Below are positions 4,218 to 19,948 of a stretch of 32,000 nucleotides of DNA, piece by piece. A program made the position numbers and the translations under genes. Within the stretch, counting starts at the first letter, position 1. Each line of letters starts with the position of its first letter. A model generated the notes under the pieces. That model saw nothing but the letters and a program-made list of their open reading frames with translations. It did no database searches and had not been told where the DNA came from. Source of the DNA: an uncultured Opitutales bacterium (GTDB lineage Bacteria; Verrucomicrobiota; Verrucomicrobiia; Opitutales; Intestinicryptomonadaceae); contig CAKUIA010000021.1 in the NCBI GenBank assembly GCA_934660865.1, positions 1 through 32,000 on the forward strand, read 5' to 3'.

Positions 4218-4337
4218 AAAATTAGCCTAAAATTATTAACTGCAAAAAAGCTATAAAATATGCAGGGCAAATGCAAGCATTTTTAGCGATTGCGCTTTTA
4301 CTGGACATATAGCGGCGTTTGTGTTTGTGTAGCTTTA

Positions 4338-5429
4338 TTGAATGTAAAAATTACAGCCATTGCGTATTCGCTTGCAAAAAACACCCTCGGCAACAAAGAG
4401 CTTGCCGAACGCTTCGGCGCCGACGTTGTTGCAAAAATAGAGAAGTTTAGCGGAATTTTAGAGCGCAGGGTGGCGGCCCCTTGCGAGTGCGCTTCGGACT
4501 TTGCGTATAACGCCGCAAAGCTTATAATAGACAACACCGCTTTGGATTTAAATTCGATAGACCTGCTTACTTTTGCAACCCAAACGCCCGACTACATTAT
4601 GCCTACTACCGCCTGCATTTTGCAGCAAAGGCTTAATTTGCCCAAAAAGGTTGCCGCCTACGACATAAATTTGGGGTGCTCGCAGTTTGTATATTCTTTG
4701 GCCAACGCCGCAATGTGGGTGGCGTCGCCCTTTGCAGACAAAGCCCTTGTTCTTACGGGCGACACCCCCACAAGGCTTTTGAATAAAAACGACAAAAGCT
4801 CGGTTGCCTTGTTCGGCGACGGCGCATGCGCCTTTTTGCTTGAAAAAAGCGAAAAGGACGAATTGCTTGACTTTAATTTCGGCAGCGACGGCGCGGGCTA
4901 TAACTCGATTATATGCCGCGCCTTTAGCATGCGCAATCCCCCAAAATATCCCGCCGACTATGTGCAGGTATGCGACGAAAATATGAATGTGCGCCGCCCA
5001 GTTGACATGTTTGTAGACGGCTTTAAAATATTTGCGTTTGCATACAAAAATATTGCCGACTCTGTTTCGGCTTTGCTCGAAAAAAATTCGCTTAAAGTTT
5101 CCGACATAGATTTGTTTATATTCCATCAGGCGGGGCAGACAATAGTTTCAAGCGCGGCAAAGCGGCTTGGCATAAGCCCCGACAAGGTTTACTATAAAAT
5201 GCACGACATAGGCAACTGCGGGGGCTCTAGCGTTGGCATTGCATTGTGCGACGCCGTTTTAAACAAAAGGCTAAGGCCGAAAATGAAGGTTGTTTTGTGC
5301 GCTTTCGGCGTGGGGCTTTCGTGGGGCAGCGTTTTGCTGGAGTGGAACGACACAAAAGCGCTTACCGACGCCGACTATTCAAATTCGCCGCAAAAGCCGC
5401 AAAGCCAAACATATGCCGACTTGCTATAA
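4338..5429 (+). CDS. KAS III-type (FabH/DarB-like) 3-oxoacyl-ACP synthase
   Basis: Cys-His-Asn triad contexts: INLGCSQFVYSL, FIFHQAGQTIV and HDIGNCGGSS. TTG at 4338 gives the typical N-terminus (L)NVKITAIAYSLAKNTLGNKELAERFG. The ORF-track start at 4290 is also TTG. Confidence 0.8.
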   Translation: MNVKITAIAYSLAKNTLGNKELAERFGADVVAKIEKFSGILERRVAAPCECASDFAYNAAKLIIDNTALDLNSIDLLTFATQTPDYIMPTTACILQQRLNLPKKVAAYDINLGCSQFVYSLANAAMWVASPFADKALVLTGDTPTRLLNKNDKSSVALFGDGACAFLLEKSEKDELLDFNFGSDGAGYNSIICRAFSMRNPPKYPADYVQVCDENMNVRRPVDMFVDGFKIFAFAYKNIADSVSALLEKNSLKVSDIDLFIFHQAGQTIVSSAAKRLGISPDKVYYKMHDIGNCGGSSVGIALCDAVLNKRLRPKMKVVLCAFGVGLSWGSVLLEWNDTKALTDADYSNSPQKPQSQTYADLL

Positions 5430-7778
5430 AAACGCCCTTAAAACCATCGCGTAGTTGTTGAAAGTTCTTGGCGACGCAAAAACCGCAATGTTTGCAAAAT
5501 CTTTGTTTAACGCGTTTGCGCCGAAAGCCGAACTTTTTGCCTCCAAAGCGCAAAGCAAAAGCGAAAGCGCATTCAGGCCGGAGCCGCTTTGCATATAGCC
5601 CGTTTTAAGCGAAGTGCAGACTTTTGCGGCATGTCCGAAATATTTTTCGCAAATGTCCTTAAGCTTTAAATCGCACGCATTGCCCATGGGGGCAAATACG
5701 GCAAAGTCTATGTCGCAGGCTTTTAAGTTTGCATTTTTAAGGGCTTTTAAAAGGGTGCTTTCCAGGCCTGTGCCATCGGTGTTTTGGGAATCGAAAGCCC
5801 CTATGTTCATCGACGACTCAAACGACAATAATTCCGCGTAGATTTTTGCGTTGCGCCCAAGCGCGCTTTCTTTGCTTTCCAGCACAAAAGCGCAGGAGCC
5901 TTCGCCGTATACGCTCTTAAACAAGTCGTTGCCGCAGAATTTAAAATCGTCTAAACTTTCGTACAGCATATCGGCGTTTTTGTAGGCGTTTAGCTGCCCT
6001 AAAAATACTTCGTCGGTAGCCTGGGCAAGCATTTGTTTTGCCGAATTTTCGCGCAGCATATAGGCGGCGTAGTCCATCGCCAAAATGCCCGAATCGAAAC
6101 CGCTTGTAAGGGTTATGTTAGAGCCTTTTATGCCCAAACCTTTCGTTGCCCAGCCCGCGGTAGAGTTTGCCGTTACGTTCGAAAAACACGAGATGTCGCC
6201 GTGCGGAATTTCGTCTTTAAAAACGCCCGTCATATGCTCGGTGTCGGGCGCGCCCCTGGAGACCGCCTCGGCTATGCCTATGTCGTTTTCGTTTTGCCTG
6301 CCTATTTTGATTTGCGCATTGTCGAACGCCTTTTTTGCCGAGATTGCGGCAAATTCGCTTATCAAATTCATTCCCGAAAAATCTACGCGCCTGTCGAAGT
6401 CGCTTCTGGTTAAAGGCCTTATTTTGCCTGCCAAATTTCCGTTTAAAGAGCCTATGCAGTTTTTTCCGGATATGTAGTTTTCCAGCTGTTCGGCGCAGTT
6501 TAGCCCCAAACACGACATCGAAGAATAGCCGGTTATTACAATGTTTGCGGCTGCGTTATATGCGCTTTCCGATTTCGGGGCAAAGCCTTTTTTCGCCACC
6601 ACAATGGCCGCATTGTTGCCCGCAAACGCATAGTTTGCCGACAAAAAGCAGTCGTAGTTTAGCTCTATGCCTTGGCCTGCCGCCACTTTTATTTTGTCGC
6701 ACTCTCCGCGCAAATTTGTAAAGCGCAAGGTAGGCGGTATAAAGTTGTCGTTCATGCTAAGCAGCTGGCATGTCGCCTCTATTATGCCCGTTGCCCCCAT
6801 GCAGTGCCCCGTATACGATTTTGTAGACGTTATATAAATTTCGTCTTTGCAGAACTTGGCAATGCCTTTCGATTCGGCCTTGTCGTTTGCTGAAGTGCCC
6901 GAAGCGTGCGCGTTTATGCAGCCAATTTGCGAGATTTCTATGTTGGCGTCTTTTACGGCCTTAAGCATTGTTTTGTATGCGCCTTCGCCGCGCGGGTCGG
7001 GCTGGGTGGGGTGGTGGGCGTCGCCCGTAGTGGCATGGCCTATAATTTTTCCGTAAATTTTTGCGTTGCGTTTTTCGGCTTCGCTTAGGTTTTCGACCAG
7101 CCAAAACGCCGCACCTTCGCCTATGTTCATTCCAACAGGCTCCGAAAAGGGCGCAGTTTTCCCTTTGCTCATTACCTTTATTGCCGAAAACCCCGCATAG
7201 TTTGCAAGGGCAAAGGCGTCGGCGCCTCCGGCAAGCACGCGCTTAAATTTGCCGCTTTTTACCAAAAGCTGCGCAAAGGCCAACGCCGCCGTGGCTCCCG
7301 AACAGGCGGTATTTATCATCCACATTGGGCACCTTGTGTTAAGCGATTTCGCCATTGCGCGCGGCAAAGCGCAATATTCGTATTGCTCAAGGTCGTTTTT
7401 TGTAAACGGCTTTTCGCTTTTGCCGAACATATGCAAATACTCGCGCTCGCCCGATGTCATTCCCGCGTTGCACGACGCCATTACCACCGCGCAGTCGTCG
7501 CCCAGGCTGCATATGTTCGCGTCGCTTAGCGCGCTTTTTGCCGCGCATATTGCCAGCCTTATAAACGGGTCGGTAAACTCGGCAAGCTCTTGTTCGTCCA
7601 TAAAAGACGAGGCATTAAAGTCTTTTATTTGGCCGCCTATGTCGCTTTGCATGCCGTTTGTGCAGATTTTCGTTACTTTGCCCAAGCCGTCTTTAAGGCC
7701 GCGCAGCGACTTTAAAACGTCGCTGCAGTTGTTGCCTATGGGCGAAATTATGCCTATTGCCGTTATCGCGCTTTGCAT
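5424..7778 (-). CDS. Fused beta-ketoacyl-ACP synthase (FabF-type KS) plus KS-like domain lacking the catalytic Cys (CLF-like), 784 aa
   Basis: The N-terminal half has INTACSGATAAL (Cys), DAHHPTQPDP, INAHASGTSAND and SYTGHCMGATG. The C-terminal half is KS-like, but the equivalent site reads LTSGFDSGILAM, with no Cys. Confidence 0.85.
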   Translation of the reverse strand: MQSAITAIGIISPIGNNCSDVLKSLRGLKDGLGKVTKICTNGMQSDIGGQIKDFNASSFMDEQELAEFTDPFIRLAICAAKSALSDANICSLGDDCAVVMASCNAGMTSGEREYLHMFGKSEKPFTKNDLEQYEYCALPRAMAKSLNTRCPMWMINTACSGATAALAFAQLLVKSGKFKRVLAGGADAFALANYAGFSAIKVMSKGKTAPFSEPVGMNIGEGAAFWLVENLSEAEKRNAKIYGKIIGHATTGDAHHPTQPDPRGEGAYKTMLKAVKDANIEISQIGCINAHASGTSANDKAESKGIAKFCKDEIYITSTKSYTGHCMGATGIIEATCQLLSMNDNFIPPTLRFTNLRGECDKIKVAAGQGIELNYDCFLSANYAFAGNNAAIVVAKKGFAPKSESAYNAAANIVITGYSSMSCLGLNCAEQLENYISGKNCIGSLNGNLAGKIRPLTRSDFDRRVDFSGMNLISEFAAISAKKAFDNAQIKIGRQNENDIGIAEAVSRGAPDTEHMTGVFKDEIPHGDISCFSNVTANSTAGWATKGLGIKGSNITLTSGFDSGILAMDYAAYMLRENSAKQMLAQATDEVFLGQLNAYKNADMLYESLDDFKFCGNDLFKSVYGEGSCAFVLESKESALGRNAKIYAELLSFESSMNIGAFDSQNTDGTGLESTLLKALKNANLKACDIDFAVFAPMGNACDLKLKDICEKYFGHAAKVCTSLKTGYMQSGSGLNALSLLLCALEAKSSAFGANALNKDFANIAVFASPRTFNNYAMVLRAFL

Positions 7779-7780
7779 GT

Positions 7781-8275
7781 CTAAAATATCCTTACGGTTT
7801 TAAGTGTTATTTTGTAGTTCGGGTTTTCTATATATACGCTTTTTACCCGTCCGTTTTCGCTTTCGAATTCGTATGCGGCGTTGTTTGCGGCAAGCTTTGT
7901 TTTGCCGTCTTTTGCGCTAATTGTGCACCTTTTGGGGAATGCCGCGGCGTATCCCAAACAAACAAGAAAGTCTTTTGCTGCGTATTTTTTTACGAGGTAT
8001 TCGGGCAAAAATTGCGAGCCTTTTGCCTCCAAAATCTCGCCCGAATTTGACACCTTTACAAACGCAAAATTTGCGCCCTCGCATTTTATGGACATTAAAG
8101 CGCCGTCGCTTTGCGCCTTTACAAAAACGTTTAAGACAATTTCCGTTTCGCCGAATTTAAACACGCCCCTTTGAATGTAGCTTTTGCCCGAAAGCCCGAA
8201 ATCGTACACATAAGGCGCCGCCCCAAGCTTTGCAAAGACCGCAAAAAACAAAATAAAAAGCCGCAAAAATTTCAT
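7781..8275 (-). CDS. Small secreted protein, possibly DUF3261 / ApeN-like
   Basis: The ATG at 8275 gives a signal peptide, MKFLRLFILFFAVFAKLGAAP. Size (164 aa) and position next to the LolA-like gene and exporter match APE-type clusters. There is an ATGA overlap with the upstream gene. The family call rests on context only. Confidence 0.45.
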   Translation of the reverse strand: MKFLRLFILFFAVFAKLGAAPYVYDFGLSGKSYIQRGVFKFGETEIVLNVFVKAQSDGALMSIKCEGANFAFVKVSNSGEILEAKGSQFLPEYLVKKYAAKDFLVCLGYAAAFPKRCTISAKDGKTKLAANNAAYEFESENGRVKSVYIENPNYKITLKTVRIF

Positions 8276-8838
8276 TGTTTGGGCGGGGTAAATCGTTCGG
8301 GTTTCGTCTCGTCGAAAGCCGCTTTTGCCGCGATTTTGTCTATATCTTTCGCCGAAAACAGCATTTCGGTTTTGTCGCCGTCCGGCTCGTAAACAACGGC
8401 CTTTACGGGGGCTTTGCCGCCAAGCGTAATTTCTATTTTGGCGGCGAATTTTTTTACAAGTTCGTCTTTCGGCGCAAGCCATATTTTGCCGTTTTCGGTT
8501 TTGCTTTCAAATTCCGAAAAGTCGCCCGAAATCATATTCAAAACCATTCGGGTAATCTGTTTTGTCTTTTCGGGCGCGGCGTTTTTTATAGGGCAAAGGG
8601 CGCCGTTTTTTTCCTCGAACTGGAACACGCCGTTTTTGTTTATTATAAGAACGCTCTTATATGGGCTAAGAACCTGCCAGCGCACGTTTTCGCCGTCGCT
8701 TACGGCAAGCGCCTTAGACGACAGCGTCTCGCCTAGCATTGCGTAGGTTTTTGTCTGCTCTATAAGCACGGCATTGGGGCCGGCAAAGCAGTGCGCGGCC
8801 AAGCACGCCGCCGAAATTATGAATGTAAACTTTTTCAT
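8272..8838 (-). CDS. LolA-like periplasmic lipid/lipoprotein carrier protein
   Basis: 188 aa with signal peptide MKKFTFIISAACLAAHCFAG. It has the size and beta-rich pattern of LolA-like proteins found in APE/flexirubin loci. There is an ATGA overlap with the upstream KS gene. Confidence 0.6.
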   Translation of the reverse strand: MKKFTFIISAACLAAHCFAGPNAVLIEQTKTYAMLGETLSSKALAVSDGENVRWQVLSPYKSVLIINKNGVFQFEEKNGALCPIKNAAPEKTKQITRMVLNMISGDFSEFESKTENGKIWLAPKDELVKKFAAKIEITLGGKAPVKAVVYEPDGDKTEMLFSAKDIDKIAAKAAFDETKPERFTPPKQ

Positions 8839-10988
8839 AAAACTTCGAAAACAAGAATTGCCGCCCTGTTTGTGCTAGACAGCACATATTGCATATAGCG
8901 CCCCTTGGCGCCGTTCTTTAGCGCCGCCAAAATTCCGAATGCCGAAGCAGAGTACGAGCTTCCGAGTTTTTCGTCTAAAAATTCGAATTTGCCGATTTTG
9001 GCAGAAACGGCTTCGGTTATTTTTTCGGCAAATTTGTTGCGCGGCATAAGCGAAAAGCACTTAACAAAATCTTTGCAATTTGCATTGGCCAAAATCTGCC
9101 CGACGCGTTCGGCCTCGGCTGCGGGGCTTTGGTCGCGTTTCGAAATATCAACAAAATCTATTTTTGCAAGGGGCTTAATGTTGCTTAATTCTTTGGACAG
9201 GTAGTAGGTTGCAGCCTGTTCGCTTAAGCAGGGCTTTGCGTGCGAATAGATTGAGTGGGCGTTCATAAACTCCTGCGCAAAGTGGTTGTATTCGTCGCTA
9301 GAGCCTACAAAGGCTGCGTCTATCGCGCTTGTCTTTATTTTGTTTATGGCGGTTTTTAGCGCACATTCAAACGAAATTTCCTTGGCCGAAACCGCAAAGT
9401 TTATGCCGTTTAATTTATGGCTTAGCGCCGCAAGCGAAGAGGCCGCGTTATGCACCGAATTTGTAAAGGAAAGCGGCTTTGCCGAATTTTCGCCCTCGGT
9501 TAAAATGGGCATTAAAAAGTTTTCGGTTTCGCCCGTCATGCCGAGCCCGGTTCCCAAACATACGCCCGTTCTTTTGGGGTTTGTTTCGGCGTTAAGGGAG
9601 TTTGCACATTCGCGCATTGCGCTTAGCAAAATCTGCTGGTGTCTGGACCACCTGCGCTTTTTTAGCGGCGATATGTTTTTTAGCGGCGTAAATGTTTGGC
9701 GTTTGCTTAAATCGCCGTAGTTTTCAAAAATTTGCGCCACATTTTCGCCCATATCCGAAAACGCCCCCAGCGAATAAACATAGCAGGGCTTTTCGTAAAA
9801 ATCTATTTTAGCGGTATTAAATTTCGAAAATATGGTGCACGAATTGTTGCCGCCAAACCCCAGAGAAAGCGACAGGACGCTTTCCAGGTTTTCCCTCGCA
9901 TTTTCGGTGGCGGGCTGCGGGGTAATTTCGGGGTCTTTGTCGGAAAAGCCCGTGCTTGCAAAGGCGGTGTTGTTTTGCATTGCCTCTATTGCCACTACTG
10001 CGTTAAGCAGGCCGCTTGCCCCCAATGTGTGCCCGAAAATTCCCTTTAAAGACGCGTAGCTGGGCACGTTTGAAAAGGCCCTGTTTAGGGCTTTAACTTC
10101 GGCTACGTCGTTGCCGGCGGTTCCCGTGCCGTGCGCGCATATAAACGAAATGGGCTTTTTGCCCGAAATCTTTAGCGCGCTTTCTATTGCCAAAAAGGCT
10201 CCCATGCCCTCGGGGTCGGGAGCGGTTGCGTGGTGTGCGTCGCACGACGACCCCCAGCCCGAAATATTCGCCAAAACTTTAAGCGAATTTTCTTCGACTG
10301 CCTTTTGGCTTGCCAAAATTAAAACGGCGCCGGCTTCGCCCAAATTTATGCCGTCGCGGTTTAAGTCGAAGGGCTTGCTAAAGTGTTTCGACAAAAGCAA
10401 AAGCGAGCCGAACCCGTTTAGGGTTATTCTGGAAAGGCTGTCGGCGCCGCAAACTACGGCAAAATCCAAATCGCCGCAGGAAATGGCGCAGGCTGCCGCA
10501 TCCATCGCAATAGACGAGCTTGAGCACGCCGTGGAAAACGCGCAGCATTGGCCGCTTGCCCCGATTTTTTTCGCCACAAATTCCGCCAAAGTGCTACATT
10601 CGTAGTAGCGCAGTGCCGAAAGGCTTTGGGTTTTGTTTTTTAAGTTGTCTATAATCGCGTTTTCGGTTTCGAAAACGCCGCCAATGCTTGTCCCCAAAAA
10701 TACGCCGCATTTGTATTTTTTTAGAATTTCGGCGTTAAAATTTAAAAGGCTTTGGTTTAAGGCCGCCAAAAGCATTTTGCCGCAGTTGGATATTTTCGAC
10801 GCGTTTTTTAATTCGGGTATTTCGGCCTGCGCCGAAAACCTGTCGGCAAACTTTTCGCTTTCGAACAGGTTTTGGTGTTTTAACGCGCGCCGCTGCAAAA
10901 GCGCCAGGTTGTAGGCCGCATTGGGGCTGCGGGCGCCTGCGCACCAAAGCCCGTGCGAAACTACGGCAATGCTTTGGCTCTTCATCAT
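8835..10988 (-). CDS. Second fused KS plus CLF-like protein, 717 aa
   Basis: The N-terminal half has FSTACSSSSIAMD (Cys), DAHHATAPDP, ICAHGTGTAGND and GIFGHTLGASG. The C-terminal KS-like half reads AVSAKEISFECAL at the aligned site, with no Cys. Confidence 0.85.
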   Translation of the reverse strand: MMKSQSIAVVSHGLWCAGARSPNAAYNLALLQRRALKHQNLFESEKFADRFSAQAEIPELKNASKISNCGKMLLAALNQSLLNFNAEILKKYKCGVFLGTSIGGVFETENAIIDNLKNKTQSLSALRYYECSTLAEFVAKKIGASGQCCAFSTACSSSSIAMDAAACAISCGDLDFAVVCGADSLSRITLNGFGSLLLLSKHFSKPFDLNRDGINLGEAGAVLILASQKAVEENSLKVLANISGWGSSCDAHHATAPDPEGMGAFLAIESALKISGKKPISFICAHGTGTAGNDVAEVKALNRAFSNVPSYASLKGIFGHTLGASGLLNAVVAIEAMQNNTAFASTGFSDKDPEITPQPATENARENLESVLSLSLGFGGNNSCTIFSKFNTAKIDFYEKPCYVYSLGAFSDMGENVAQIFENYGDLSKRQTFTPLKNISPLKKRRWSRHQQILLSAMRECANSLNAETNPKRTGVCLGTGLGMTGETENFLMPILTEGENSAKPLSFTNSVHNAASSLAALSHKLNGINFAVSAKEISFECALKTAINKIKTSAIDAAFVGSSDEYNHFAQEFMNAHSIYSHAKPCLSEQAATYYLSKELSNIKPLAKIDFVDISKRDQSPAAEAERVGQILANANCKDFVKCFSLMPRNKFAEKITEAVSAKIGKFEFLDEKLGSSYSASAFGILAALKNGAKGRYMQYVLSSTNRAAILVFEVL

Positions 10989-11245
10989 CGCTTCGACGAA
11001 ATGTAGTCTGCCAATGCGCCCATTGTGGCGAAAATCTTTTTGGCTTCGTCTTTGTCGTCTACCGAAATTTTATATTTGTTTTCGAGCATAACGATAAGCT
11101 CTAGGGCGTCTACCGAGTCCAGCCCAAGGCCGTCGTCCTCGAAAAGCGGGGTGTTTTCGTCGGCAAAATCCAAGTCGGCCGCCTGAATGTTCAGGGAAGA
11201 AGCCAGGTTCTTTTTTATGTCTGCAATCAAGTCTTGTCTGTCCAT
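10985..11245 (-). CDS. Acyl carrier protein
   Basis: 86 aa with the phosphopantetheine-attachment motif DDGLGLDSVDALELIVMLE. Confidence 0.9.
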   Translation of the reverse strand: MDRQDLIADIKKNLASSLNIQAADLDFADENTPLFEDDGLGLDSVDALELIVMLENKYKISVDDKDEAKKIFATMGALADYISSKR

Positions 11246-14472: not shown

Positions 14473-14477
14473 AAAAC

Positions 14478-15191: not shown

Positions 15192-15263
15192 AGGCAGACT
15201 TTTTGCGCTTGAATAGTGTTTATATAAAAGCAATAGTAATTTTTTATAAAAGGTATCTAAAAT
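15192..15263. promoter_or_regulatory. AT-rich divergent intergenic region between the 8-gene minus operon and the ACP/GcvT-like/FabG operon
   Basis: This is the only non-coding gap between the two divergent operons. It contains a possible TTGAAT (15209-15214), a 17 nt spacer and AATAGT (15232-15237), plus an 8-nt direct repeat, tataaaag. No strong consensus was found. Confidence 0.3.
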
Positions 15264-15536
15264 ATGATAGTCAACAACGAAAATCTTGATAAAAGACGCA
15301 ACGTTTGTTCGGAGCTTAAAAGCAAGCTTATAGAGGCTTTGGATTTGCCCTATTTGCCGGGCGATTTGTCCGACGATATTCCCATTGTGGGCCTCGGCCT
15401 CGGGCTGGATTCGCTGGATATTCTGGAAGTTGTAAGCTGTGTGGAAAGCAATTTCGGCGTAAAAATGCCCGAATCGGGGCTTGGCGAGCTTCGCTCGATA
15501 AACACTTTGGTAGACTATATTTTGGCTAATAAATGA
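15264..15536 (+). CDS. Acyl carrier protein (second copy)
   Basis: 90 aa containing VGLGLGLDSLDILEVV. Confidence 0.85.
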   Translation: MIVNNENLDKRRNVCSELKSKLIEALDLPYLPGDLSDDIPIVGLGLGLDSLDILEVVSCVESNFGVKMPESGLGELRSINTLVDYILANK

Positions 15537-16600
15537 AAACTATGCTTTTAAGGGAAAATTGGGCGAATGCCGAAAAATTTGCAAACGTAGCGGGCAGCGA
15601 AGCCGTTGCCGTGTATAAATCGCTTAAAGACGAATATGCGGCCTTGCGCAACAGCGCGCTTTTAAGCGAATTGTCGTATTTAAAGCCCCTTGTATATACC
15701 GAAAGCGACGCCGCAGACAATCTCGACGCGGTTTTGACATCGAACATACTAAAGCTTAGGTACGGCAAGGTTATAGACTCTTTTTTGGCGGACAAAAACG
15801 GAAATATTGCCTCCGAAACCTTTGTGGCCGACACGGGCGACTTTATTTTGCTTTTTGCCGACGCTTTTGACAATGCCGACATTTCGGCTTTAAAAAACGG
15901 AGCGAAAGACGCAGGCGAAACTCATTGCGTTTTTTCGGTAGACGGGCCTTTGGCGTATAAGGCCGCAAAAGAGGTTTTCGGTTCCGACATTTTAAACCTT
16001 TCGTTTATGTCGTGCGAAACGTACAACTACGAGGGCGAAAAGGTTGTTTTGCTGCGCTGCGGCAAAACGGGCGAATTTGGCTATATGTTTTTTGCGCCGC
16101 TTGCGGTTGCAGACAGGCTTTTTAAACAGCTTAAAGGCGCGGTGGAAAATCTTGGCGGCTGCCTTGGAGGCTTTGAAGCTCTGGATTTGGCCGCGATGGA
16201 ATCGAACTTCTTTTGCGCAAGAAACGAGGGCGCAAAAATCGGCAATATGGCGCAGCTTGGGCTGTTGTGGGCGGTAGATTTCGACAAGGAATCGTTTTCG
16301 GGTTCCGAAAAAATATTCGAATACCGCAAAGACGAATCTTTAATGCCCGTAGTTTGCGTAAGGGGCAATATTGCCGAAAATGCCGAAATTTTCGCAAACG
16401 GCGAAAGCGTAGGGCGCGTTGTTTGCAGCAAATTCAGCTACGCGCTAAACGACAATTTGGGCATGGCAGTTTTCAATCGCAAATATGCGTTGGCGGGCTT
16501 CGAGTTTTCGTCGAAAGCCGGCGAAAACTTGGGCGACATTTCCACAATTTCGCGCCCGTGCGTTATGACAAAAAGCCTTGAAAACGGAATGGAGCAATAG
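15533..16600 (+). CDS. Aminomethyltransferase-fold (GcvT/YgfZ family) folate-binding-type protein
   Basis: EYAALRNSALLSELSYLKPLVYTESDAADNLDAVLTSNILKL resembles the GcvT N-terminus (EhxAvRxxAglFDlShmgk..v.GpdA..fLq.l.tndv..L). VVLLRCGKTGEFGYMFFAP resembles isRtGYTGEdGfEi. An ATGA overlap joins it to the ACP gene. Confidence 0.7.
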   Translation: MKTMLLRENWANAEKFANVAGSEAVAVYKSLKDEYAALRNSALLSELSYLKPLVYTESDAADNLDAVLTSNILKLRYGKVIDSFLADKNGNIASETFVADTGDFILLFADAFDNADISALKNGAKDAGETHCVFSVDGPLAYKAAKEVFGSDILNLSFMSCETYNYEGEKVVLLRCGKTGEFGYMFFAPLAVADRLFKQLKGAVENLGGCLGGFEALDLAAMESNFFCARNEGAKIGNMAQLGLLWAVDFDKESFSGSEKIFEYRKDESLMPVVCVRGNIAENAEIFANGESVGRVVCSKFSYALNDNLGMAVFNRKYALAGFEFSSKAGENLGDISTISRPCVMTKSLENGMEQ

Positions 16601-17334
16601 TGAAATTTTCGGGTAAAACGGTTTTGGTTACGGGCGGCTCGCGCGGCATAGGGGCTGCCATAGTGGAGCTTTTTGCCGAAGAGGGCGCATTTGTATGCTT
16701 TACGTATAAATCCTCCGCGCAGCTTGCCGAAGATTTGGCAAAGAAAACGGGCGGCAAGGCGTATCAATGCGGGCAGGACAACCCAGCGGAAATCTCGCGC
16801 ATTGTAGACGAAATTTGCGCCGAGCGCGGCAGGATAGACATTCTTGTAAACAACGCGGGCATTACAAAAGACGGCTACATAATGCTTATGGGCGAAAACG
16901 ATTTTAAAAGCGTTATCGACACAAACCTTACGGGCGCGTTTTTGTGGACAAAGGCGGTTATGCGCAAAATGTATGCAAAAAAATCGGGCAGCGTTGTGTT
17001 TGTTTCGTCGGTGTCGGGCCTAACGGGCGTTGTAGGGCAGGCCAACTATGCGGCAAGCAAGGGGGCAATGCTTTCGTTTATGCGCGTTGCGGCTGCCGAA
17101 GGCGGCATGAAAGGCATTCGCGTAAACGCCGTTGCCCCCGGTTTTGTTAAGACCGATATGACGGCGAAAATGCCGCGCGCCATAGCGGCAGCCCAGTGCG
17201 AAAAAATTACGCTAAAGCGTTTTGCAGACCCCGTTGAAATTGCAAGGGCGGTTTTGTTTTTGGCGGGCGACGAGGCCTCGTACATAACGGGGCAGTGCCT
17301 TGTTGTAGACGGCGGGCTAATTTCGCACGCGTAA
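16600..17334 (+). CDS. 3-oxoacyl-ACP reductase (SDR, FabG-like)
   Basis: GKTVLVTGGSRGIGAAIV (TGxxxGxG), NNAG and the YAASKGA catalytic Tyr/Lys. The GTG start overlaps the previous stop by 1 nt. Confidence 0.9.
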   Translation: MKFSGKTVLVTGGSRGIGAAIVELFAEEGAFVCFTYKSSAQLAEDLAKKTGGKAYQCGQDNPAEISRIVDEICAERGRIDILVNNAGITKDGYIMLMGENDFKSVIDTNLTGAFLWTKAVMRKMYAKKSGSVVFVSSVSGLTGVVGQANYAASKGAMLSFMRVAAAEGGMKGIRVNAVAPGFVKTDMTAKMPRAIAAAQCEKITLKRFADPVEIARAVLFLAGDEASYITGQCLVVDGGLISHA

Positions 17335-17416: not shown

Positions 17417-18121
17417 TTACCTGCGTTTTTCTATATCCCAAAAAATTTTCGCATTTTTGGCAAACTGCTCGTCGGATACGCTTAGGTAAAGCTCGGCTAC
17501 GTCAATCAAATTTTGGCTTATGTTGCAGCTTTCGCCGAACTCTTTGCCCATTTCGCGGAAGGCCGCAAATATTTTTTTTACCCTTAAAGACGTTTGTGAT
17601 TTTTCGCCCAAAAGCGGGGCTTCGCCTCGGCGTATGTTTGCAATGTAGTTTAGGTTTAGCGCGCTTGCAATGCTTGAATATGTTTGGCTTATTACGCCAA
17701 ACGCCGAGTTTTTGCGGCCCAATGCGCAGCTTATGGTAATGAATTTTTTGCCCTTTAACGCCGTTGAATTTTCTACCGCATTGTTTTGCGCGTTAAATGT
17801 ATACCCGTCTATTAACGGGAAGCACCTGTCGAAGAATATTTTTACAAGCGAACTTGTAGAATAAAAATATACCGGGCTTATGCACACAACGGCATCGCAC
17901 TCTTTTAAAAGCTGCAAAAGCTTTTGCATATTGTCGTTTTGAACGCATTTGTCCGTTTTTACGCACGCAAAACAGCCTTTGCAGGGCGCAATGTTTTGGG
18001 CGGCCAAATCTATGTCGAAAATTTCGGCGTTGGCCTCTGTTAAGCCCTCTTTAAACAGGTTGCCCAGCTTTTCGCACAGGCCCGTTTTGCGGGGGTTGCC
18101 CCTTAAAATTAAAACTTTCAT
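17417..18121 (-). CDS. Flavodoxin-fold NAD(P)H-dependent FMN reductase / iron-sulfur flavoprotein (Isf-like)
   Basis: N-terminus MKVLILRGNPRKTG and a compact cysteine motif CKGCFACVKTDKC (CX2CX2CX5C) as in Isf proteins, then AVVCISPVYFYS. There is an ATGA overlap with the FabZ-like gene. Confidence 0.7.
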   Translation of the reverse strand: MKVLILRGNPRKTGLCEKLGNLFKEGLTEANAEIFDIDLAAQNIAPCKGCFACVKTDKCVQNDNMQKLLQLLKECDAVVCISPVYFYSTSSLVKIFFDRCFPLIDGYTFNAQNNAVENSTALKGKKFITISCALGRKNSAFGVISQTYSSIASALNLNYIANIRRGEAPLLGEKSQTSLRVKKIFAAFREMGKEFGESCNISQNLIDVAELYLSVSDEQFAKNAKIFWDIEKRR

Positions 18122-18543
18122 TGCGCGTTTTTTGCGGCCGCCAAAACAATGGTGCCCTCTGCGATTTTGTCGGTACCTACACAGGCCGTGGCCGAAAATT
18201 GGAAAAGCCCGTTAAAGCTGCGCACAATCTTGGCACAAAGCCTTAATGTGTCGGGCGGGCGGGCAACCTTTAAATATTTCATATTTGCCGAGGCCAAATA
18301 AAACATTTTGTTTTGCGGGGCATTTTTTAACGCAAGCAAAATTCCGCCGGTTTGGGCAAGGGCTTCGCAGGTAAGCACCCCTGGCATAATGGGTTGACCG
18401 GGGAAATGCCCCTTAAAAAACGGCAGGCTTTCGTCTAAAAACAATTCGCATTCTATTTGCGTGTCGGTGTGCGAAACAACTTTGTCGACCATCAAAAAGG
18501 GTTCTCTGTGCAAAAGCAGCTTTTTTATTTCTTCTTTGTCCAT
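18118..18543 (-). CDS. 3-hydroxyacyl-ACP dehydratase (FabZ-like hotdog fold)
   Basis: LLHREPFLMVDKV, FFKGHFPGQPIMPGVL and EALAQTGG are canonical FabZ motifs. Confidence 0.85.
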   Translation of the reverse strand: MDKEEIKKLLLHREPFLMVDKVVSHTDTQIECELFLDESLPFFKGHFPGQPIMPGVLTCEALAQTGGILLALKNAPQNKMFYLASANMKYLKVARPPDTLRLCAKIVRSFNGLFQFSATACVGTDKIAEGTIVLAAAKNAQ

Positions 18544-18548: not shown

Positions 18549-19328
18549 TTATCCGTTGTTTGAATTTGCGTCTATGCTTTTTAGGTTGCGGTAAATTTCG
18601 TTGTAGGCCTTTGCCGAAATTGCGTCGGCATTGCGGCAGTTTTGCGGGTTTATGGGTTCGCCTATGCAGATTGTAAGCGTTTGCATAAATTTTGGGCGGA
18701 AGCTTTTTTGCCCCTTTGCCATAAATTTGTCGCTAAAGCGGATTGTGCAGGTTCCCACCGTTTTGTTCAGCTCTTTTGCAAGCTTAAAAGCCGATTTTTT
18801 AAAGTCTGCAAGCCGGCATGTGCGGCTGCGCTGGCCTTCGGGGAATACTATAAGGCGGTGGTTTCCGTTTAAAACTTCGGCGCATTTTTTGTATGCGTTT
18901 TGCACCGACAAAATATCGTCTTTCGAAATCGAAACGAAATTGAATATGTAAAAGAAAATCAAAATGAACGGGTTTCTTTTGTATTTTGTCTTTACCAAAA
19001 TTCCCGCGTCGCCTATCAGGGCCAGCATTATAAACGGGTCTATAAAGGAGGTGTGGTTTGCAACGTAAATGTCGGCTTTGTTAATGTTTTCTTTGCCGCA
19101 AATTTTTACGGTATACCCGCCCATTTTGGGCAGCGCAAAAAATACATAAACGGCCATTGCGGTTTGTATTATTGCCGAAATTGCCCTGCAGCGCAGGTTT
19201 TTATTGAAAAACAAAACAATATACGCCAAAACCGACGCCAAAACGGCGGGTATCGCCAAAATGCCGAATACAACAAAGCCCATGCAAAACCAAAGCGAAC
19301 AGAAAAATTCTTTTATATTTTTGGGCAT
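18549..19328 (-). CDS. Membrane-anchored PlsC-family (LPLAT/AGPAT) acyltransferase
   Basis: HX4D motif ANHTSFIDPF and motif III VFPEGQRS. Two N-terminal hydrophobic segments are present. Confidence 0.8.
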   Translation of the reverse strand: MPKNIKEFFCSLWFCMGFVVFGILAIPAVLASVLAYIVLFFNKNLRCRAISAIIQTAMAVYVFFALPKMGGYTVKICGKENINKADIYVANHTSFIDPFIMLALIGDAGILVKTKYKRNPFILIFFYIFNFVSISKDDILSVQNAYKKCAEVLNGNHRLIVFPEGQRSRTCRLADFKKSAFKLAKELNKTVGTCTIRFSDKFMAKGQKSFRPKFMQTLTICIGEPINPQNCRNADAISAKAYNEIYRNLKSIDANSNNG

Positions 19329-19948
19329 TTTTTCCTTAAAATTACATAGGTTGCAATCAGCGCAAAAACAAGGGCAATGACAATTAAAAATTTCTCCCTA
19401 AAAGCCGCGTTAAAAATCAAAATCATTGCAAGTGCGATAAGCCCCTGCACGCAAATGTTTACGGTAAGGTATGTAAAAATTTGCGCCTTTTTCGATAGCG
19501 AAGCTAATATCAGATTCTGCGCAAAGTAGGGAACCCCCGGGATGGCCCTTATAAAGAAGTTAAGCTTAAAGTATATGGCGTCTTCGGCATGCCGCGGCAG
19601 AAATTTGTTTTTAAGCTCTTTTACATAGGGCAGTTCCGAAAACACATTGCCTATAAAAAAGCCTATAAGCGAGCTTGTGAAAAGCCCTATAATGCAAAGC
19701 AAAAAGGCTTTTGGCAACGTATATGCGCTTGCCGCAAATACATAGCAAAACGAAAGCGGCACGCCCACGGCGCACCCTATACCCATAACGGGCAAAAAAA
19801 CGTATGCGGCGGAATTGTTTTTTGCAAATTCTTCGAACGCCCCGACAATTTGCGCAAAGCCCCAAAAATATTGAACGGACAACGCCGCCAATATTACGAG
19901 TACTACCTTTGCATATTTAAAAAACATTTGCCGATTATAGTAGGGCAT
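19313..19948 (-). CDS. VTT-domain (TVP38/TMEM64/DedA, SNARE-associated) membrane protein
   Basis: 211 aa polytopic protein. FFIRAIPGVPYFAQNLILASL fits the VTT motif R.iP.vP. It overlaps the PlsC-like start by 16 nt. Confidence 0.55.
   Translation of the reverse strand: MPYYNRQMFFKYAKVVLVILAALSVQYFWGFAQIVGAFEEFAKNNSAAYVFLPVMGIGCAVGVPLSFCYVFAASAYTLPKAFLLCIIGLFTSSLIGFFIGNVFSELPYVKELKNKFLPRHAEDAIYFKLNFFIRAIPGVPYFAQNLILASLSKKAQIFTYLTVNICVQGLIALAMILIFNAAFREKFLIVIALVFALIATYVILRKKCPKI

What the first reader, a model, noticed from the sequence alone, without database searches (positions are those of the whole stretch)
4290..19948. APE-like type II FAS/PKS lipid gene cluster without any visible aryl-starter module (~15.6 kb, 16 genes in 4 transcription units)
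Gene content read from the translations:
- a KAS III
- two KS-CLF-like fusions
- two ACPs (both with GLGLDS)
- one FabG-like KR and one FabZ-like DH
- LolA-like and DUF3261-like secreted proteins
- an MMPL exporter
- an LpxL-type acyltransferase and a PlsC-type acyltransferase
- a GT2 and a VTT/DedA protein

The core set (LPLAT-ACP-KS/CLF-LolA-MMPL-DUF3261-GT2-KR-DH) is the signature of aryl-polyene, flexirubin and xanthomonadin loci as described for E. coli CFT073 and V. fischeri Ape clusters.

Several genes that define those pathways are absent from the window:
- AMP-ligase/CoA-ligase for an aryl acid (ApeH-like)
- tyrosine/histidine ammonia-lyase or chorismate-derived starter enzyme
- thioesterase (ApeK-like)
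- methyltransferase or halogenase
- any recognisable enoyl reductase

Instead there is a KAS III primer enzyme, a GcvT-family protein and an Fe-S flavoprotein. KR and DH without ER predicts a conjugated or unsaturated acyl chain. The chain would be primed by an acyl-CoA rather than an aryl acid, transferred to a glyco- or lysolipid anchor, and exported to the outer membrane. That would be a non-aryl variant of the APE paradigm which, to my knowledge, has no characterised member.
Basis: partly seen in the sequence, partly recalled or inferred. Interest (0 to 1): 0.8.

Follow-up and report, generated by a model that had tools for sequence, protein, structure and literature searches.

The report
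Hybrid lipid cluster with ACP-linked GcvT enzyme
A gut Verrucomicrobium carries a 16-gene lipid-building and export cluster that resembles aryl-polyene pigment clusters but lacks their aromatic starter genes and instead contains a widespread, unstudied module built around a carrier protein paired with a folate-type enzyme.

Summary
The host is a gut Opitutales bacterium (Verrucomicrobiota).

The locus joins two modules:
- **APE-like module:** an ApeO-type KS-CLF fusion, an ApeE-like ACP, LpxL-type and PlsC acyltransferases, GT2, MMPL, LolA and a LolB-like protein.
- **Second module:** a KS-CLF fusion with Phe at the Cys site, an ACP, a T-protein homologue, KR, an Isf-type Fe-S flavoprotein and a FabZ-like DH.

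The second module recurs in Fibrobacter, Omnitrophota and peat and lake metagenomes, in clusters of the kind genome-mining studies report as "ladderane"-type. There its KS-CLF usually carries an N-terminal B12 radical-SAM domain and is followed by a 4HBT thioesterase and FabD. About a quarter of those loci also have an ApeH-like ligase.

The window is a reduced form without the rSAM domain, thioesterase or SCP2 domain, and with a KAS III beside it. No ligase or ammonia-lyase occurs in it or in about 30 orthologous gut loci.

An ACP gene precedes the T-protein homologue in 94 of 94 loci, and the two are fused in six lineages. No member is characterised. The product, starter and chain saturation remain inferred.

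The parts
4290..5429 (+). KAS III (FabH-like) ketosynthase. This is the maximal ORF; the likely start is near 4338-4344.
   Evidence: Pfam ACP_syn_III and ACP_syn_III_C. NF006829 scores 253 bits against a cut-off of 249. Cys-His-Asn triad intact, and orthologues at 51-57% identity lie beside the cluster in L011, L016, L034, L035, L036 and L051; L012 also has one. Best PDB hit is 3GWA, a long FabH paralogue.
5424..7778 (-). KS-CLF fusion of 784 aa. The KS half is active. The CLF-like half has Phe at the Cys site.
   Evidence: Pfam. Active-site columns. Aligns to residues 442-1236 of the 1239-1253-aa B12-rSAM-KS-CLF fusions. Forms a clade with the rSAM-fused KSs at bootstrap 100. PDB hits include the anammox amxFabF heterodimer 9S5H.
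7781..8275 (-).
   Evidence: No Pfam hit for the window copy. 6/10 orthologues hit PF03550 LolB, best E = 8e-5. Signal peptide begins at M70. Not significantly similar to ApeN.
8272..8838 (-). LolA-like periplasmic lipid carrier.
   Evidence: PF03548, E = 3.5e-6. Weak match to NF053544 LolA2_flexi.
8835..10988 (-). KS-CLF fusion of 717 aa. The KS half is ApeO-type. The CLF-like half has Glu at the Cys site.
   Evidence: Pfam ketoacyl-synt plus Ketoacyl-synt_2. Best NCBIfam match is PRK09185. 34% identity to ApeO, E = 5e-46. Clade with ApeO at bootstrap 92. Active-site columns.
10985..11245 (-). ACP, ApeE-like (ACP86).
   Evidence: PP-binding. PRK09184. 40% identity to ApeE.
11292..12161 (-). 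LpxL-type lysophospholipid/lipid A acyltransferase.
   Evidence: PF03279. Matches the C-terminal half of ApeJ.
12148..14508 (-). MMPL/RND exporter. The likely start gives 12148-14472.
   Evidence: PF03176. Weak HpnN-like match. Weak match to ApeM. Called as 774 aa in L001.
14478..15233 (-). GT2 glycosyltransferase. The likely start is 15191.
   Evidence: PF00535. 30% identity to the N-terminal half of ApeJ.
15264..15536 (+). ACP (ACP90). It overlaps the GcvT-like gene by 4 nt.
   Evidence: PP-binding. An ACP lies within 600 bp upstream of the GcvT-like gene in 94/94 loci. ACP and GcvT-like are fused in P0012, P0338, P0386, P0409, P0413 and P0420.
15533..16600 (+). T-protein (GcvT) homologue with a folate-binding fold, linked to the ACP.
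   Evidence: PF01571 and PF08669. Below all GcvT equivalog cut-offs. AF2 pLDDT 86.5. Foldseek TM 0.83 to T-protein 1WOO at 21% identity. A Glu takes the place of the catalytic Asp, and the TGE motif is kept.
16600..17334 (+). FabG-like 3-ketoacyl-ACP reductase.
   Evidence: adh_short_C2 and KR. TIGR01830 scores 267 bits against a cut-off of 298. 42% identity to EcFabG and 30% to ApeQ.
17417..18121 (-). Isf-type iron-sulfur flavoprotein (FMN_red). It lacks the SCP2 domain that most orthologues carry.
   Evidence: PF03358 and PF02525. Conserved CX2CX2CX5C motif. Orthologues are 340-390 aa with SCP2.
18118..18543 (-). FabZ/ApeP-like 3-hydroxyacyl-ACP dehydratase.
   Evidence: PF07977 and a weak ApeI-like match. 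NF000582 scores 105.7 bits against a cut-off of 113. A precomputed ApeP-like hit is on record.
18549..19328 (-). PlsC-type acyltransferase (ApeD-like). The likely start is 19283.
   Evidence: PF01553. Weak match to ApeD.
19313..19948 (-). VTT/DedA-family membrane protein.
   Evidence: PF09335, 28.3 bits, below the cut-off of 33.9. Co-conserved at the end of the flavoprotein-DH-PlsC operon in gut Opitutales loci.

Best explanation
The locus is a dedicated type II FAS/PKS-like pathway for a cell-envelope lipid. It is assembled from two conserved modules.

**Module 1** is the 784-aa KS-CLF, ACP90, the T-protein homologue, KR, the Fe-S flavoprotein, DH and PlsC.
- It builds the first part of an acyl chain on ACP90.
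- Malonyl-ACP must come from the housekeeping FabD, because the window has none.
- In this lineage priming is by the adjacent KAS III from an acyl-CoA. The alternative is KS-CLF decarboxylation of malonyl-ACP.
- The T-protein homologue performs a tetrahydrofolate-dependent one-carbon transfer on an ACP90-tethered intermediate. My best guess is addition of a C1 branch or starter carbon.

**Module 2** is APE-like: the ApeO-type KS-CLF, the ApeE-like ACP, the LpxL-type and PlsC acyltransferases, GT2, MMPL, LolA, the LolB-like protein and DedA.
- It extends the chain to its final length.
- It attaches the chain to a glyco- or lysolipid anchor.
- It moves the product to the outer membrane.

No aryl acid is loaded by any enzyme encoded here. 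The chain is probably at least partly unsaturated.

**Shown:** gene content, active sites, co-conservation, the ACP-GcvT linkage, and purifying selection.

**Inferred:** the order of steps, the starter, the C1 chemistry, the degree of saturation, the anchor, and the destination.
For: **Gene content and catalytic residues**
- Domain assignments.
- KS and CLF active-site columns.
- KAS III triad.

**Two-module origin**
- Module 1 occurs alone in Fibrobacter (L038) and Omnitrophota (L039), with orthologues at 33-55% identity.
- MMPL, LolA and the 717-type KS-CLF are present in 33/33, 30/32 and 32/32 gut Opitutales loci. Elsewhere they are present in only 7/33, 7/27 and 3/27.
- A verrucomicrobial cluster with TAL and an AMP-ligase (L028) shares module 2, the DH, the flavoprotein and PlsC. 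It has no GcvT-like gene or KAS III within view.

**ACP dependence of the T-protein homologue**
- An ACP gene lies directly upstream in 94/94 loci.
- The two genes overlap by 4 nt in the window.
- They are fused in six lineages that are less than 50% identical to one another.

**Folate fold kept**
- TM 0.83 to T-proteins.
- An acidic residue is kept at the catalytic Asp position, and the TGE motif is invariant.

**KAS III belongs to the cluster**
- It lies next to the cluster in seven gut loci besides the window. It sits at either end, and the outside neighbours differ.
- No plsX or fabD lies beside it.

**Self-priming precedent:** the anammox KS/CLF heterodimer decarboxylates malonyl-ACP (bioRxiv 10.64898/2026.05.19.726425).

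**Roles of the APE components:** PMC8253772.

**The cluster is functional:** dN/dS is 0.06-0.26.
Against: - No product is known for any member of either verrucomicrobial cluster type.
- The T-protein homologue's substrate and direction of reaction are unknown. Its family mostly removes C1 units rather than adding them.
- KAS III, KR and DH score close to the housekeeping FabH, FabG and FabZ thresholds. Part of the locus could therefore serve general fatty-acid synthesis.
- The whole genome could not be inspected for second copies of these genes, for FabI, or for aryl-CoA ligases.
- The window lineage has lost three parts that most relatives keep: the rSAM domain, the thioesterase and the SCP2 domain. 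Its product may differ from theirs.
- The split of labour between the two KS-CLF enzymes and the two ACPs is pure inference.
Confidence: 0.45

Rival explanations
1. Specialised but fully reduced fatty-acid pathway. The Fe-S flavoprotein (SCP2-fused in relatives) or the housekeeping FabI reduces each enoyl intermediate. The product is then a saturated or mono-unsaturated, possibly branched, acyl chain for an outer-membrane glycolipid, not a conjugated polyene.
For: - KR and DH are much closer to FabG and FabZ than to ApeQ and ApeP.
- The 784-aa KS scores best against FabF models and FabF structures.
- A conserved flavoprotein with a lipid-binding SCP2 domain sits in the DH operon in most relatives.
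- Related anammox enzymes are regarded as fatty-acid enzymes (bioRxiv 10.64898/2026.05.19.726425).
Against: - No member of the FMN_red/Isf family is known to me as an enoyl-ACP reductase.
- The same flavoprotein occurs in the TAL- and ligase-containing cluster L028, which looks like a polyene pigment pathway.
- No FabI, FabK, FabL or FabV homologue is in the window.
Confidence: 0.3
2. Cryptic aryl polyene. An aromatic acyl-CoA (benzoyl-, 4-hydroxybenzoyl-, coumaroyl- or feruloyl-CoA) made elsewhere in the genome or from diet-derived acids is used as primer by the KAS III. The T-protein homologue could act as a LigM-like O-demethylase on the aryl head.
For: - The module 2 genes are APE-type.
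- A related verrucomicrobial cluster has TAL and a ligase.
- 7/29 environmental relatives have an ApeH-like ligase directly upstream of the rSAM-KS-CLF.
- LigM and DesA belong to the same fold family.
- From my own knowledge, KAS III-like enzymes can accept aromatic CoA primers.
Against: - No ligase or lyase appears in the window or in about 30 gut Opitutales loci within 10 kb either side.
- The T-protein homologue is far closer to T-proteins (TM 0.83) than to LigM (TM 0.64).
- Minimal clusters in Fibrobacter and Omnitrophota have neither a ligase nor a KAS III.
Confidence: 0.12
3. The fabH-, fabG- and fabZ-like genes are the organism's housekeeping FAS II genes. They merely sit next to an APE-like export cluster.
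For: KAS III just reaches the NF006829 cut-off. KR and DH fall just below the FabG and FabZ cut-offs.
Against: - No acpP, fabD, fabF (equivalog threshold) or fabI is present.
- KR and DH are orthologous to the module 1 genes in Fibrobacter and Omnitrophota, at 53-55% and 40% identity.
- KAS III keeps its place beside the cluster even where the cluster is rearranged.
- Both KS enzymes are CLF fusions that fall short of the FabF equivalog threshold, and in a tree rooted on a single FabF they group with ApeO-type or rSAM-fused KSs.
Confidence: 0.08
4. Decaying remnant. The loss of the rSAM domain, thioesterase and SCP2 domain means the cluster no longer makes a product.
For: Three parts present in most relatives are missing from the window.
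Against: - All 15 tested genes are intact, with dN/dS of 0.06-0.26 against a relative with about 90% amino-acid identity.
- The same reduced architecture with KAS III recurs in several species at about 40-57% identity.
Confidence: 0.03

Closest known systems
Aryl polyene (APE) clusters of E. coli CFT073 and Xenorhabdus doucetiae (ApeA-R)
   Same: - The 717-aa KS is ApeO-type, and its fused partner lacks the catalytic Cys, as ApeC does.
- An ApeE-like ACP is present.
- GT2 and LPLAT match the two halves of ApeJ, and PlsC matches ApeD.
- MMPL, LolA and a LolB-like protein fill the ApeM, ApeL and ApeN roles.
- No canonical enoyl reductase is present (PMC8253772).
   Different: - No ApeH adenylating enzyme, no ApeR, no ApeK and no ApeB.
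- KS and CLF are fused.
- KR is FabG-like rather than ApeQ-like.
- Extra parts: KAS III, a second KS-CLF, the T-protein homologue, the Fe-S flavoprotein and DedA.
- The host is a strictly gut-associated Verrucomicrobium.
Candidate ladderane clusters of anammox bacteria (kustE3603-3608 and kuste2802-2805) and the antiSMASH 'ladderane'-type BGCs of non-anammox anaerobes
   Same: - A KS paired with a catalytically dead CLF-like partner. Phe at the Cys position matches Kuste2805 (PMC2649909).
- A dedicated ACP and a FabZ-like DH.
- In orthologues, a B12 radical-SAM enzyme, here fused to the KS-CLF.
- The same phyla are reported to carry such BGCs: Fibrobacterota, Verrucomicrobiota and Omnitrophota (PMC9902471).
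   Different: - The window copy has no radical-SAM domain and no phytoene-dehydrogenase homologue.
- The anammox papers I read do not mention a T-protein homologue, an Fe-S flavoprotein or APE-type export genes.
- Ladderanes have never been found outside anammox bacteria.
Verrucomicrobial TAL/AMP-ligase cluster (L028/L029; flexirubin- or APE-like; uncharacterised)
   Same: It shares orthologues of the 717-type KS-CLF (35% identity), ACP, LPLAT, GT2, LolA, PlsC, ApeP-like DH and the FMN_red flavoprotein.
   Different: - L028 has an aromatic ammonia-lyase, an AMP-ligase, a separate KS and CLF, a thioesterase, a deacetylase, an AAT-family protein and a methyltransferase domain.
- It lacks the T-protein homologue, KAS III and the 784-type KS-CLF within view.
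Glycine cleavage T-protein (GcvT) and its partner H-protein
   Same: - The full three-domain fold is kept (TM 0.83).
- Acidic catalytic residue and TGE motif retained (the latter pterin-binding, from memory).
- It works with a small carrier protein bearing a long thiol arm.
   Different: - About 20% identity, and below every GcvT equivalog cut-off.
- The partner is a phosphopantetheinyl ACP, not a lipoyl H-protein.
- No gcvH or gcvP is nearby.
- It is embedded in a KS/KR/DH operon.

Membership tests
Aryl polyene (APE) BGC, E. coli/Xenorhabdus type | ApeH-type adenylating enzyme that loads an aryl acid onto the ACP | tested here: not met
   tblastn with ApeH and with the L028 AMP-ligase gives no hit in the window (E > 0.2) or in L004-L025. 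The count is 0/33 in gut Opitutales loci.
Aryl polyene (APE) BGC, E. coli/Xenorhabdus type | ApeO-type KS working with a Cys-less CLF (ApeC) | tested here: met
   The 717-aa protein's KS half is 34% identical to ApeO and groups with it at bootstrap 92. Its C-half lacks the Cys and His residues. The two are fused rather than separate.
Aryl polyene (APE) BGC, E. coli/Xenorhabdus type | Separate initiating KS (ApeR) | tested here: not met
   No stand-alone FabF-like KS is present. A KAS III and a second KS-CLF fusion are present instead.
Aryl polyene (APE) BGC, E. coli/Xenorhabdus type | LolA / MMPL / DUF3261 export set, plus ApeD- and ApeJ-type acyl- and glycosyltransferases | tested here: met
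   LolA, MMPL, PlsC, GT2 and LPLAT are all found. The third export protein is LolB-like, not DUF3261.
Aryl polyene (APE) BGC, E. coli/Xenorhabdus type | ApeK-type 4HBT thioesterase | tested here: not met
   Absent from the window. Present between the GcvT-like gene and KR in 67/87 related loci.
Aryl polyene (APE) BGC, E. coli/Xenorhabdus type | Conjugated aryl-polyene carboxylic acid as product | not testable with these tools
   No chemistry is available. The absence of a canonical ER is compatible with this, but the Fe-S flavoprotein leaves it open.
Flexirubin cluster | Tyrosine ammonia-lyase with 4-coumarate ligase, and DarA/DarB dialkylresorcinol genes | tested here: not met
   No Lyase_aromatic or AMP-binding domain was found. 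KAS III scores 35 bits against DarB, whose cut-off is 550.
Anammox-type 'ladderane' cluster | FabF-like KS plus a catalytically dead FabF-like partner, a dedicated ACP and a FabZ homologue | tested here: met
   The 784-aa fusion has an active KS half and a C-half with Phe at the Cys site, as in Kuste2805. ACP90 and the DH are present (PMC2649909).
Anammox-type 'ladderane' cluster | Cobalamin-dependent radical-SAM enzyme | tested here: not met
   Absent from the window. Present as an N-terminal domain of the orthologous KS-CLF in L037, L038, L039 and 18 gut loci.
Anammox-type 'ladderane' cluster | Phytoene-dehydrogenase-like desaturase | tested here: not met
   No such domain appeared in any window ORF scanned.
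Housekeeping FAS II | FabF/FabB at equivalog score, with FabD, AcpP and an enoyl reductase | tested here: not met
   TIGR03150 scores 327 and 231 bits against a cut-off of 494. No FabD or ER is present. The ACPs fall below the AcpP cut-offs. KAS III alone reaches a FabH subfamily cut-off.
Glycine cleavage T-protein (GcvT) | Equivalog-level sequence score and genomic or functional link to GcvH and GcvP | tested here: not met
   Scores are 59-81 bits against cut-offs of 236-459. The neighbour is an ACP in 94/94 loci. The fold itself is met, at TM 0.83.

The most novel reading that the evidence does not exclude
The ACP/T-protein-homologue pair is a previously unrecognised tailoring or starter-forming step. 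In it a tetrahydrofolate-dependent enzyme transfers a one-carbon unit to or from an acyl chain held on a carrier protein. Together with the KS-CLF(-B12-rSAM) fusion, it defines a new, widespread class of envelope lipids in anaerobes (gut Opitutales, Fibrobacter, Omnitrophota, peat and lake bacteria). Genome-mining studies report antiSMASH 'ladderane' or 'arylpolyene' BGCs in these phyla (PMC9902471; bioRxiv 10.1101/2020.05.05.072835), and I expect this family to be among them; antiSMASH was not run here.
Probability: 0.35. Interest if true: 0.8.

Novelty: new variant of a known kind. Interest (0 to 1): 0.62.

Why it matters
- **An unexplained class of predicted clusters.** APE- and 'ladderane'-type clusters are among the commonest predicted BGCs in Gram-negative and anaerobic bacteria. 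Outside a few Proteobacteria, Bacteroidetes and anammox bacteria, nobody knows what they make.
- **A modular view.** This locus shows that the 'ladderane-like' KS/CLF module and the APE-like anchoring and export module are separable units. Gut Opitutales have joined them.
- **A conserved component not yet described.** The paper searches found no description of the T-protein homologue that is always paired with, and sometimes fused to, an ACP.
- **What a confirmed activity would add.** If the homologue does folate-dependent chemistry on carrier-bound lipids, that would be a new reaction type for fatty-acid and polyketide synthesis. It would also point to an outer-membrane lipid of human- and animal-gut Verrucomicrobiota that could matter for host interaction.
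- **A simpler entry point.** The reduced, rSAM-free window version should be an easier system for working out the shared chemistry than the anammox clusters, which have no genetic system.

Tried and rejected
- **Housekeeping fabH test.** I looked for plsX or fabD beside the KAS III orthologues and found none. The 353-aa ORF next to KAS III in L016 is not PlsX.
- **DUF3261 membership.** hhalign of the orthologue alignment against ApeN was not significant (probability 1.4%). The gene is filed as LolB-like instead.
- **Promoter and terminator scan of 3900-20200.** Counts do not differ clearly from shuffled sequence, and terminator-like sites fall below it, so this says nothing for or against the transcription units.
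- **Rfam scan of the window.** No family reached threshold.
- **Literature.** Four searches pairing aminomethyltransferase, GcvT or glycine cleavage with aryl polyene, ladderane, radical SAM or ACP returned nothing. An Opitutales 'arylpolyene' mention from turtle-ant symbionts gives no detail.
- **First protein search.** The word-index search for the GcvT-like protein suggested a family of 13 restricted to Opitutales. That was an artefact of sensitivity. Context look-ups, the metagenome scan and the full HMM search showed a much wider family.
- **Structure of the ACP-GcvT fusion.** I considered predicting it but did not. The tool returns no coordinates, so the docking geometry could not be read.
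- **Flavoprotein as dedicated reductant for the rSAM domain.** I rejected this as the sole role, because the flavoprotein is kept in rSAM-less clusters, including the window.
- **T-protein homologue as methyl supplier to the B12-rSAM domain.** I rejected this as its only role for the same reason.

Full report
**1. What is in the window**

The large ORFs between 4290 and 19948 were scanned against Pfam and NCBIfam.

| Coordinates | Strand | Product |
|---|---|---|
| 4290-5429 | + | KAS III |
| 5424-7778 | - | 784-aa double ketosynthase |
| 7781-8482 | - | small protein with no Pfam hit |
| 8272-8838 | - | LolA-like |
| 8835-10988 | - | 717-aa double ketosynthase (ketoacyl-synt + Ketoacyl-synt_2) |
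| 10985-11245 | - | ACP |
| 11292-12161 | - | LpxL-type acyltransferase |
| 12148-14508 | - | MMPL |
| 14478-15233 | - | GT2 |
| 15264-15536 | + | second ACP |
| 15533-16600 | + | GCV_T / GCV_T_C protein |
| 16600-17334 | + | FabG-like SDR |
| 17417-18121 | - | FMN_red / Flavodoxin_2 protein |
| 18118-18543 | - | FabA/FabZ-type dehydratase |
| 18549-19328 | - | PlsC acyltransferase |
| 19313-19948 | - | weak VTT/DedA protein |

- These are 16 genes in four strand blocks.
- The flanks are ordinary. Upstream lie HlyIII, a FecCD/ABC transporter, IF-1 and a TadA-like deaminase. Downstream lie a pentapeptide protein, Gfo/Idh/MocA, LacI, a rhamnosidase, a second PlsC, an AroA-Cmk fusion, TyrA, QueC and an MCP.
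- No AMP-ligase, aromatic ammonia-lyase, thioesterase, methyltransferase, FabD or enoyl reductase is present in any ORF.
- None is present as a six-frame remnant anywhere in the 32 kb either.

**2. Details checked**

- Both fusions are aligned to E. coli FabF. Their N-halves keep Cys164, His304, Lys336 and His341.
- Their C-halves have Phe (784-aa protein) or Glu (717-aa protein) at the Cys position and lack the histidines.
- KAS III has an intact Cys-His-Asn triad. Alignment with orthologues suggests the true start is near 4338-4344.
- Both ACPs carry GLGLDS.
- The flavoprotein carries C47-x2-C50-x2-C53-x5-C59, at least 90% conserved in 23 orthologues. From memory this is the compact cluster motif of Isf iron-sulfur flavoproteins, so 'Fe-S flavoprotein' is reasonable.
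- The 'DUF3261-like' gene is better called LolB-like. The window copy hits nothing, but 6 of 10 orthologues hit Pfam LolB (best E = 8e-5).
- A profile comparison with E. coli ApeN is not significant.
- The LolB-like protein most likely starts at M70 with a signal peptide, giving 7781-8275.

**3. Organism and conservation**

- The GcvT-like protein and its neighbours were found in 21 GTDB species genomes. All that are classified below domain are Verrucomicrobiota, almost all Opitutales or Opitutia, most from gut or faecal samples; one record is titled only 'uncultured bacterium'.
- Named examples are Candidatus Merdousia, Coraliomargarita sp. CAG:312 and the isolate Puniceicoccaceae bacterium Marseille-Q1082.
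- The core order is KS-CLF784, LolB-like, LolA, KS-CLF717, ACP, LPLAT, MMPL, GT2, then divergently ACP, GcvT-like, KR, with flavoprotein, DH, PlsC and VTT nearby.
- This order is kept at 30-60% amino-acid identity.
- Against a relative with about 90% amino-acid identity (L006), dN/dS is 0.06-0.26 for all 15 cluster genes tested; KAS III lies beyond that locus. That is the same range as the flanking genes. The cluster is under selection, not decaying.

**4. APE-like half**

I fetched the E. coli CFT073 ape cluster and fab genes and compared them directly.

- The 717-aa KS half is closest to ApeO: 34% identity, E = 5e-46, against E = 3e-28 for FabF.
- ACP86 is 40% identical to ApeE.
- GT2 and the LpxL-type acyltransferase match the N- and C-halves of ApeJ.
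- PlsC matches ApeD, and MMPL weakly matches ApeM.
- In a neighbour-joining tree the 717-type KS groups with other verrucomicrobial fusions and then with ApeO at bootstrap 92.
- The roles assigned to these Ape proteins are elongation by ApeO:ApeC, anchoring by ApeD and ApeJ, and export by ApeL, ApeM and ApeN. These come from PMC8253772.
- A more distant verrucomicrobial cluster (L028/L029) shares this half plus the DH, flavoprotein and PlsC.
- That cluster does contain an aromatic ammonia-lyase, an AMP-ligase, a 4HBT thioesterase and a methyltransferase domain.

So an aryl-primed version exists in the phylum, and the window type differs from it exactly at the starter genes.

**5. The other half is a separate, widespread module**

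- Homologues of the 784-aa KS-CLF are mostly proteins of about 1250 aa with an N-terminal B12-binding radical-SAM domain.
- The window protein aligns to residues 442-1236 of them.
- In a Fibrobacter MAG (L038) the context is rSAM-KS-CLF, a second double KS, ACP, GcvT-like, 4HBT thioesterase, KR and FabD.
- In an Omnitrophota MAG (L039) the context is the same set without the second double KS. On the opposite strand it adds a flavoprotein-SCP2 fusion, an ApeP-like DH and an acyltransferase.
- Neither locus has LolA, MMPL, GT2 or LPLAT genes.
- Their ACP, GcvT-like, KR, DH and flavoprotein are the best matches of the window proteins, at 48-52%, 33-35%, 53-55%, 40% and 32% identity.
- A metagenome scan with a GcvT-like alignment gave 259 relatives from gut, peat, lake and sediment samples.

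Counts from the loci with enough flank, by tblastn:

| Feature | All loci | Gut Opitutales | Other lineages |
|---|---|---|---|
| ACP gene within 600 bp upstream of the GcvT-like gene | 94/94 | 40/40 | 54/54 |
| Thioesterase downstream | 67/87 | 24/37 | 43/50 |
| KR downstream | 60/75 | 27/33 | 33/42 |
| FabD downstream | - | 0/32 | 27/34 |
| Ammonia-lyase | 0/62 | 0/33 | 0/29 |
| ApeH-like ligase | - | 0/33 | 7/29 |
| MMPL | - | 33/33 | 7/33 |
| LolA | - | 30/32 | 7/27 |
| 717-type KS-CLF | - | 32/32 | 3/27 |

The window cluster is therefore a lineage-specific union of two modules.

**6. The window is a reduced variant**

- Among gut Opitutales loci, 18 have the rSAM domain and the thioesterase, with no KAS III in view.
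- Seven loci, including the window, have the rSAM-less KS-CLF, no thioesterase, and a KAS III beside the cluster.
- The KAS III sits next to KR in L011, L012, L016, L034 and L051. It sits next to the 784-type KS-CLF in the window, L035 and L036.
- Its outside neighbours differ from genome to genome. This argues that it belongs to the cluster.
- One caveat applies. In most rSAM-type loci the far side of the KS-CLF gene is out of view. It is visible only in L037, which has a stand-alone KS and a second DH there instead.
- The window lineage has also lost the SCP2 domain of the flavoprotein: 234 aa against 340-390 aa.

**7. The T-protein homologue**

- It falls below every GcvT equivalog cut-off, scoring 59-81 bits against cut-offs of 236-459.
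- It still has the complete T-protein fold. The AF2 model has pLDDT 86.5 and pTM 0.88. Foldseek gives TM 0.83 to Thermotoga T-protein 1WOO at 21% identity.
- DMGDH, DmdA and LigM follow further down the Foldseek list.
- In the profile alignment to 1WOO, the position of the catalytic Asp is a nearly invariant Glu (E95). The R-x-G-x-T-G-E-x-G-Y motif is invariant. That this Glu binds the pterin is from memory.
- Besides P0012, five further representatives that are less than 50% identical to one another are PP-binding/GCV_T fusions of 441-464 aa.
- Together with the 94/94 adjacency, this is strong evidence that the enzyme acts with the ACP, most simply on something attached to its phosphopantetheine arm. 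This parallels T-protein acting on the lipoyl arm of H-protein.
- The gene is kept under purifying selection in rSAM-less clusters (dN/dS 0.125). Its role therefore cannot be only to serve the radical-SAM domain.
- The reaction itself is unknown. I favour a one-carbon transfer involving tetrahydrofolate, either adding a branch or starter carbon or removing a methyl or aminomethyl group. This is inference.

**8. Relation to the literature**

- Rattray et al. 2009 (PMC2649909) described atypical FabF paralogues lacking the active-site Cys in Kuenenia, Rhodopirellula and Geobacter. Examples are Phe163 in Kuste2805 and Glu163 in an R. baltica protein.
- Those paralogues sit next to SAM-radical/B12 genes. 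These are the same two substitutions seen in the window's two CLF-like halves.
- A 2026 preprint shows that the anammox pair amxFabF2/amxFabFmut forms a KS/CLF-like heterodimer. It decarboxylates malonyl-ACP and prefers short chains.
- What I take to be its PDB entry, 9S5H (the entry name is not given in the preprint text I read), is among the best structural-sequence hits of the 784-aa protein.
- antiSMASH 'ladderane' BGCs have been reported, with unknown function, in Fibrobacterota, Verrucomicrobiota, Omnitrophota and other anaerobes (PMC9902471).
- A 2026 review still lists the ladderane radical-SAM enzyme as uncharacterised (PMC13459092).
- None of the papers found mentions a T-protein homologue in these clusters.

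**9. Most likely working**

1. FabD from primary metabolism supplies malonyl-ACP.
2. KAS III primes from an acyl-CoA, or the Phe-type KS-CLF self-primes.
3. The 784-aa KS-CLF, KR and DH elongate on ACP90.
4. The T-protein homologue modifies an ACP90-bound intermediate.
5. The ApeO-type KS-CLF with the ApeE-like ACP extends the chain to its final length.
6. PlsC, the LpxL-type acyltransferase and GT2 attach the chain to a glycolipid or lysolipid.
7. MMPL, LolA, the LolB-like protein and perhaps DedA deliver it to the outer membrane.

Only the parts list, the active sites, the linkage and the conservation are shown. The sequence of events and the chemistry are inferred.

Whether the chain is a polyene is open. 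There is no canonical enoyl reductase. However, KR and DH are FabG- and FabZ-like, and a conserved Fe-S flavoprotein with a lipid-binding domain in relatives shares the DH operon.

**10. Verdict**

The cluster is APE-like without an encoded aryl starter, and it is uncharacterised.
- It is not simply an APE variant. It is a hybrid with the 'ladderane-like' KS-CLF/ACP/T-protein module. Relatives carry the thioesterase and sometimes a ligase. The window is a reduced derivative.
- I rate it a new variant of a known kind.
- The ACP-linked T-protein homologue is the most interesting element and can be tested directly.

Noticed in passing
L037:10001-13720, L038:10001-13762, L039:10001-13753 (orthologues of window 5424-7778): Single polypeptides of about 1250 aa fuse an N-terminal B12-binding radical-SAM domain to a KS and a CLF-like domain. 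They are common in gut Opitutales, Fibrobacter, Omnitrophota and many peat and lake metagenomes. The window copy lacks the radical-SAM part.
   Followed up: partly
L004:10001-11287 (P0012); P0338, P0386, P0409, P0413, P0420: Recurrent ACP (PP-binding) fusions to the T-protein homologue, in six representatives that are less than 50% identical to one another.
   Followed up: yes
L028:1-19293: A verrucomicrobial APE/flexirubin-like cluster. It has an aromatic ammonia-lyase, an AMP-ligase, an AAT-family (PF03417) protein and a polysaccharide deacetylase. It also has a 1469-aa fusion of GT2, DUF2062, MMPL and a methyltransferase.
   Followed up: partly
window 26597-28567 (-): EPSP synthase (AroA) fused to cytidylate kinase (Cmk) in one 656-aa protein. 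It lies next to TyrA and a second PlsC. It looks like housekeeping and is not part of the cluster.
   Followed up: no
L036:19248-22166: An iorA/iorB-like 2-oxoacid:ferredoxin oxidoreductase and a PaaK-like AMP-ligase lie about 2.5-4.5 kb (the ligase itself about 4.5 kb) beyond the cluster's KAS III in one Opitutales genome. The arrangement is not conserved in other loci, so it is probably unrelated aromatic amino-acid fermentation.
   Followed up: partly
P0126 (1226 aa) and P0354 (685 aa): Two odd fusions seen in hit lists. P0126 joins a KS-CLF to a polysaccharide deacetylase and LolA domains. P0354 is a high-scoring T-protein fused to a lysyl-phosphatidylglycerol-synthase transmembrane region.
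   Followed up: no
window 29441-30340 (-) and 30182-31945 (+): The QueC ORF has an 86-residue N-terminal extension before the QueC domain, and it overlaps the start of the MCP gene on the other strand. The annotated start is probably too far upstream.
   Followed up: no
L037:13839-17451: In an rSAM-type Opitutales locus, the position that KAS III occupies in the window type is taken by a small unknown ORF, a second FabA/ApeI-like DH, a stand-alone 421-aa KS and a KdtA-like glycosyltransferase.
   Followed up: no
window 17338-17739 (+): A 133-aa ORF after KR has no family hit and overlaps the flavoprotein gene on the other strand. It is probably not a gene.
   Followed up: partly
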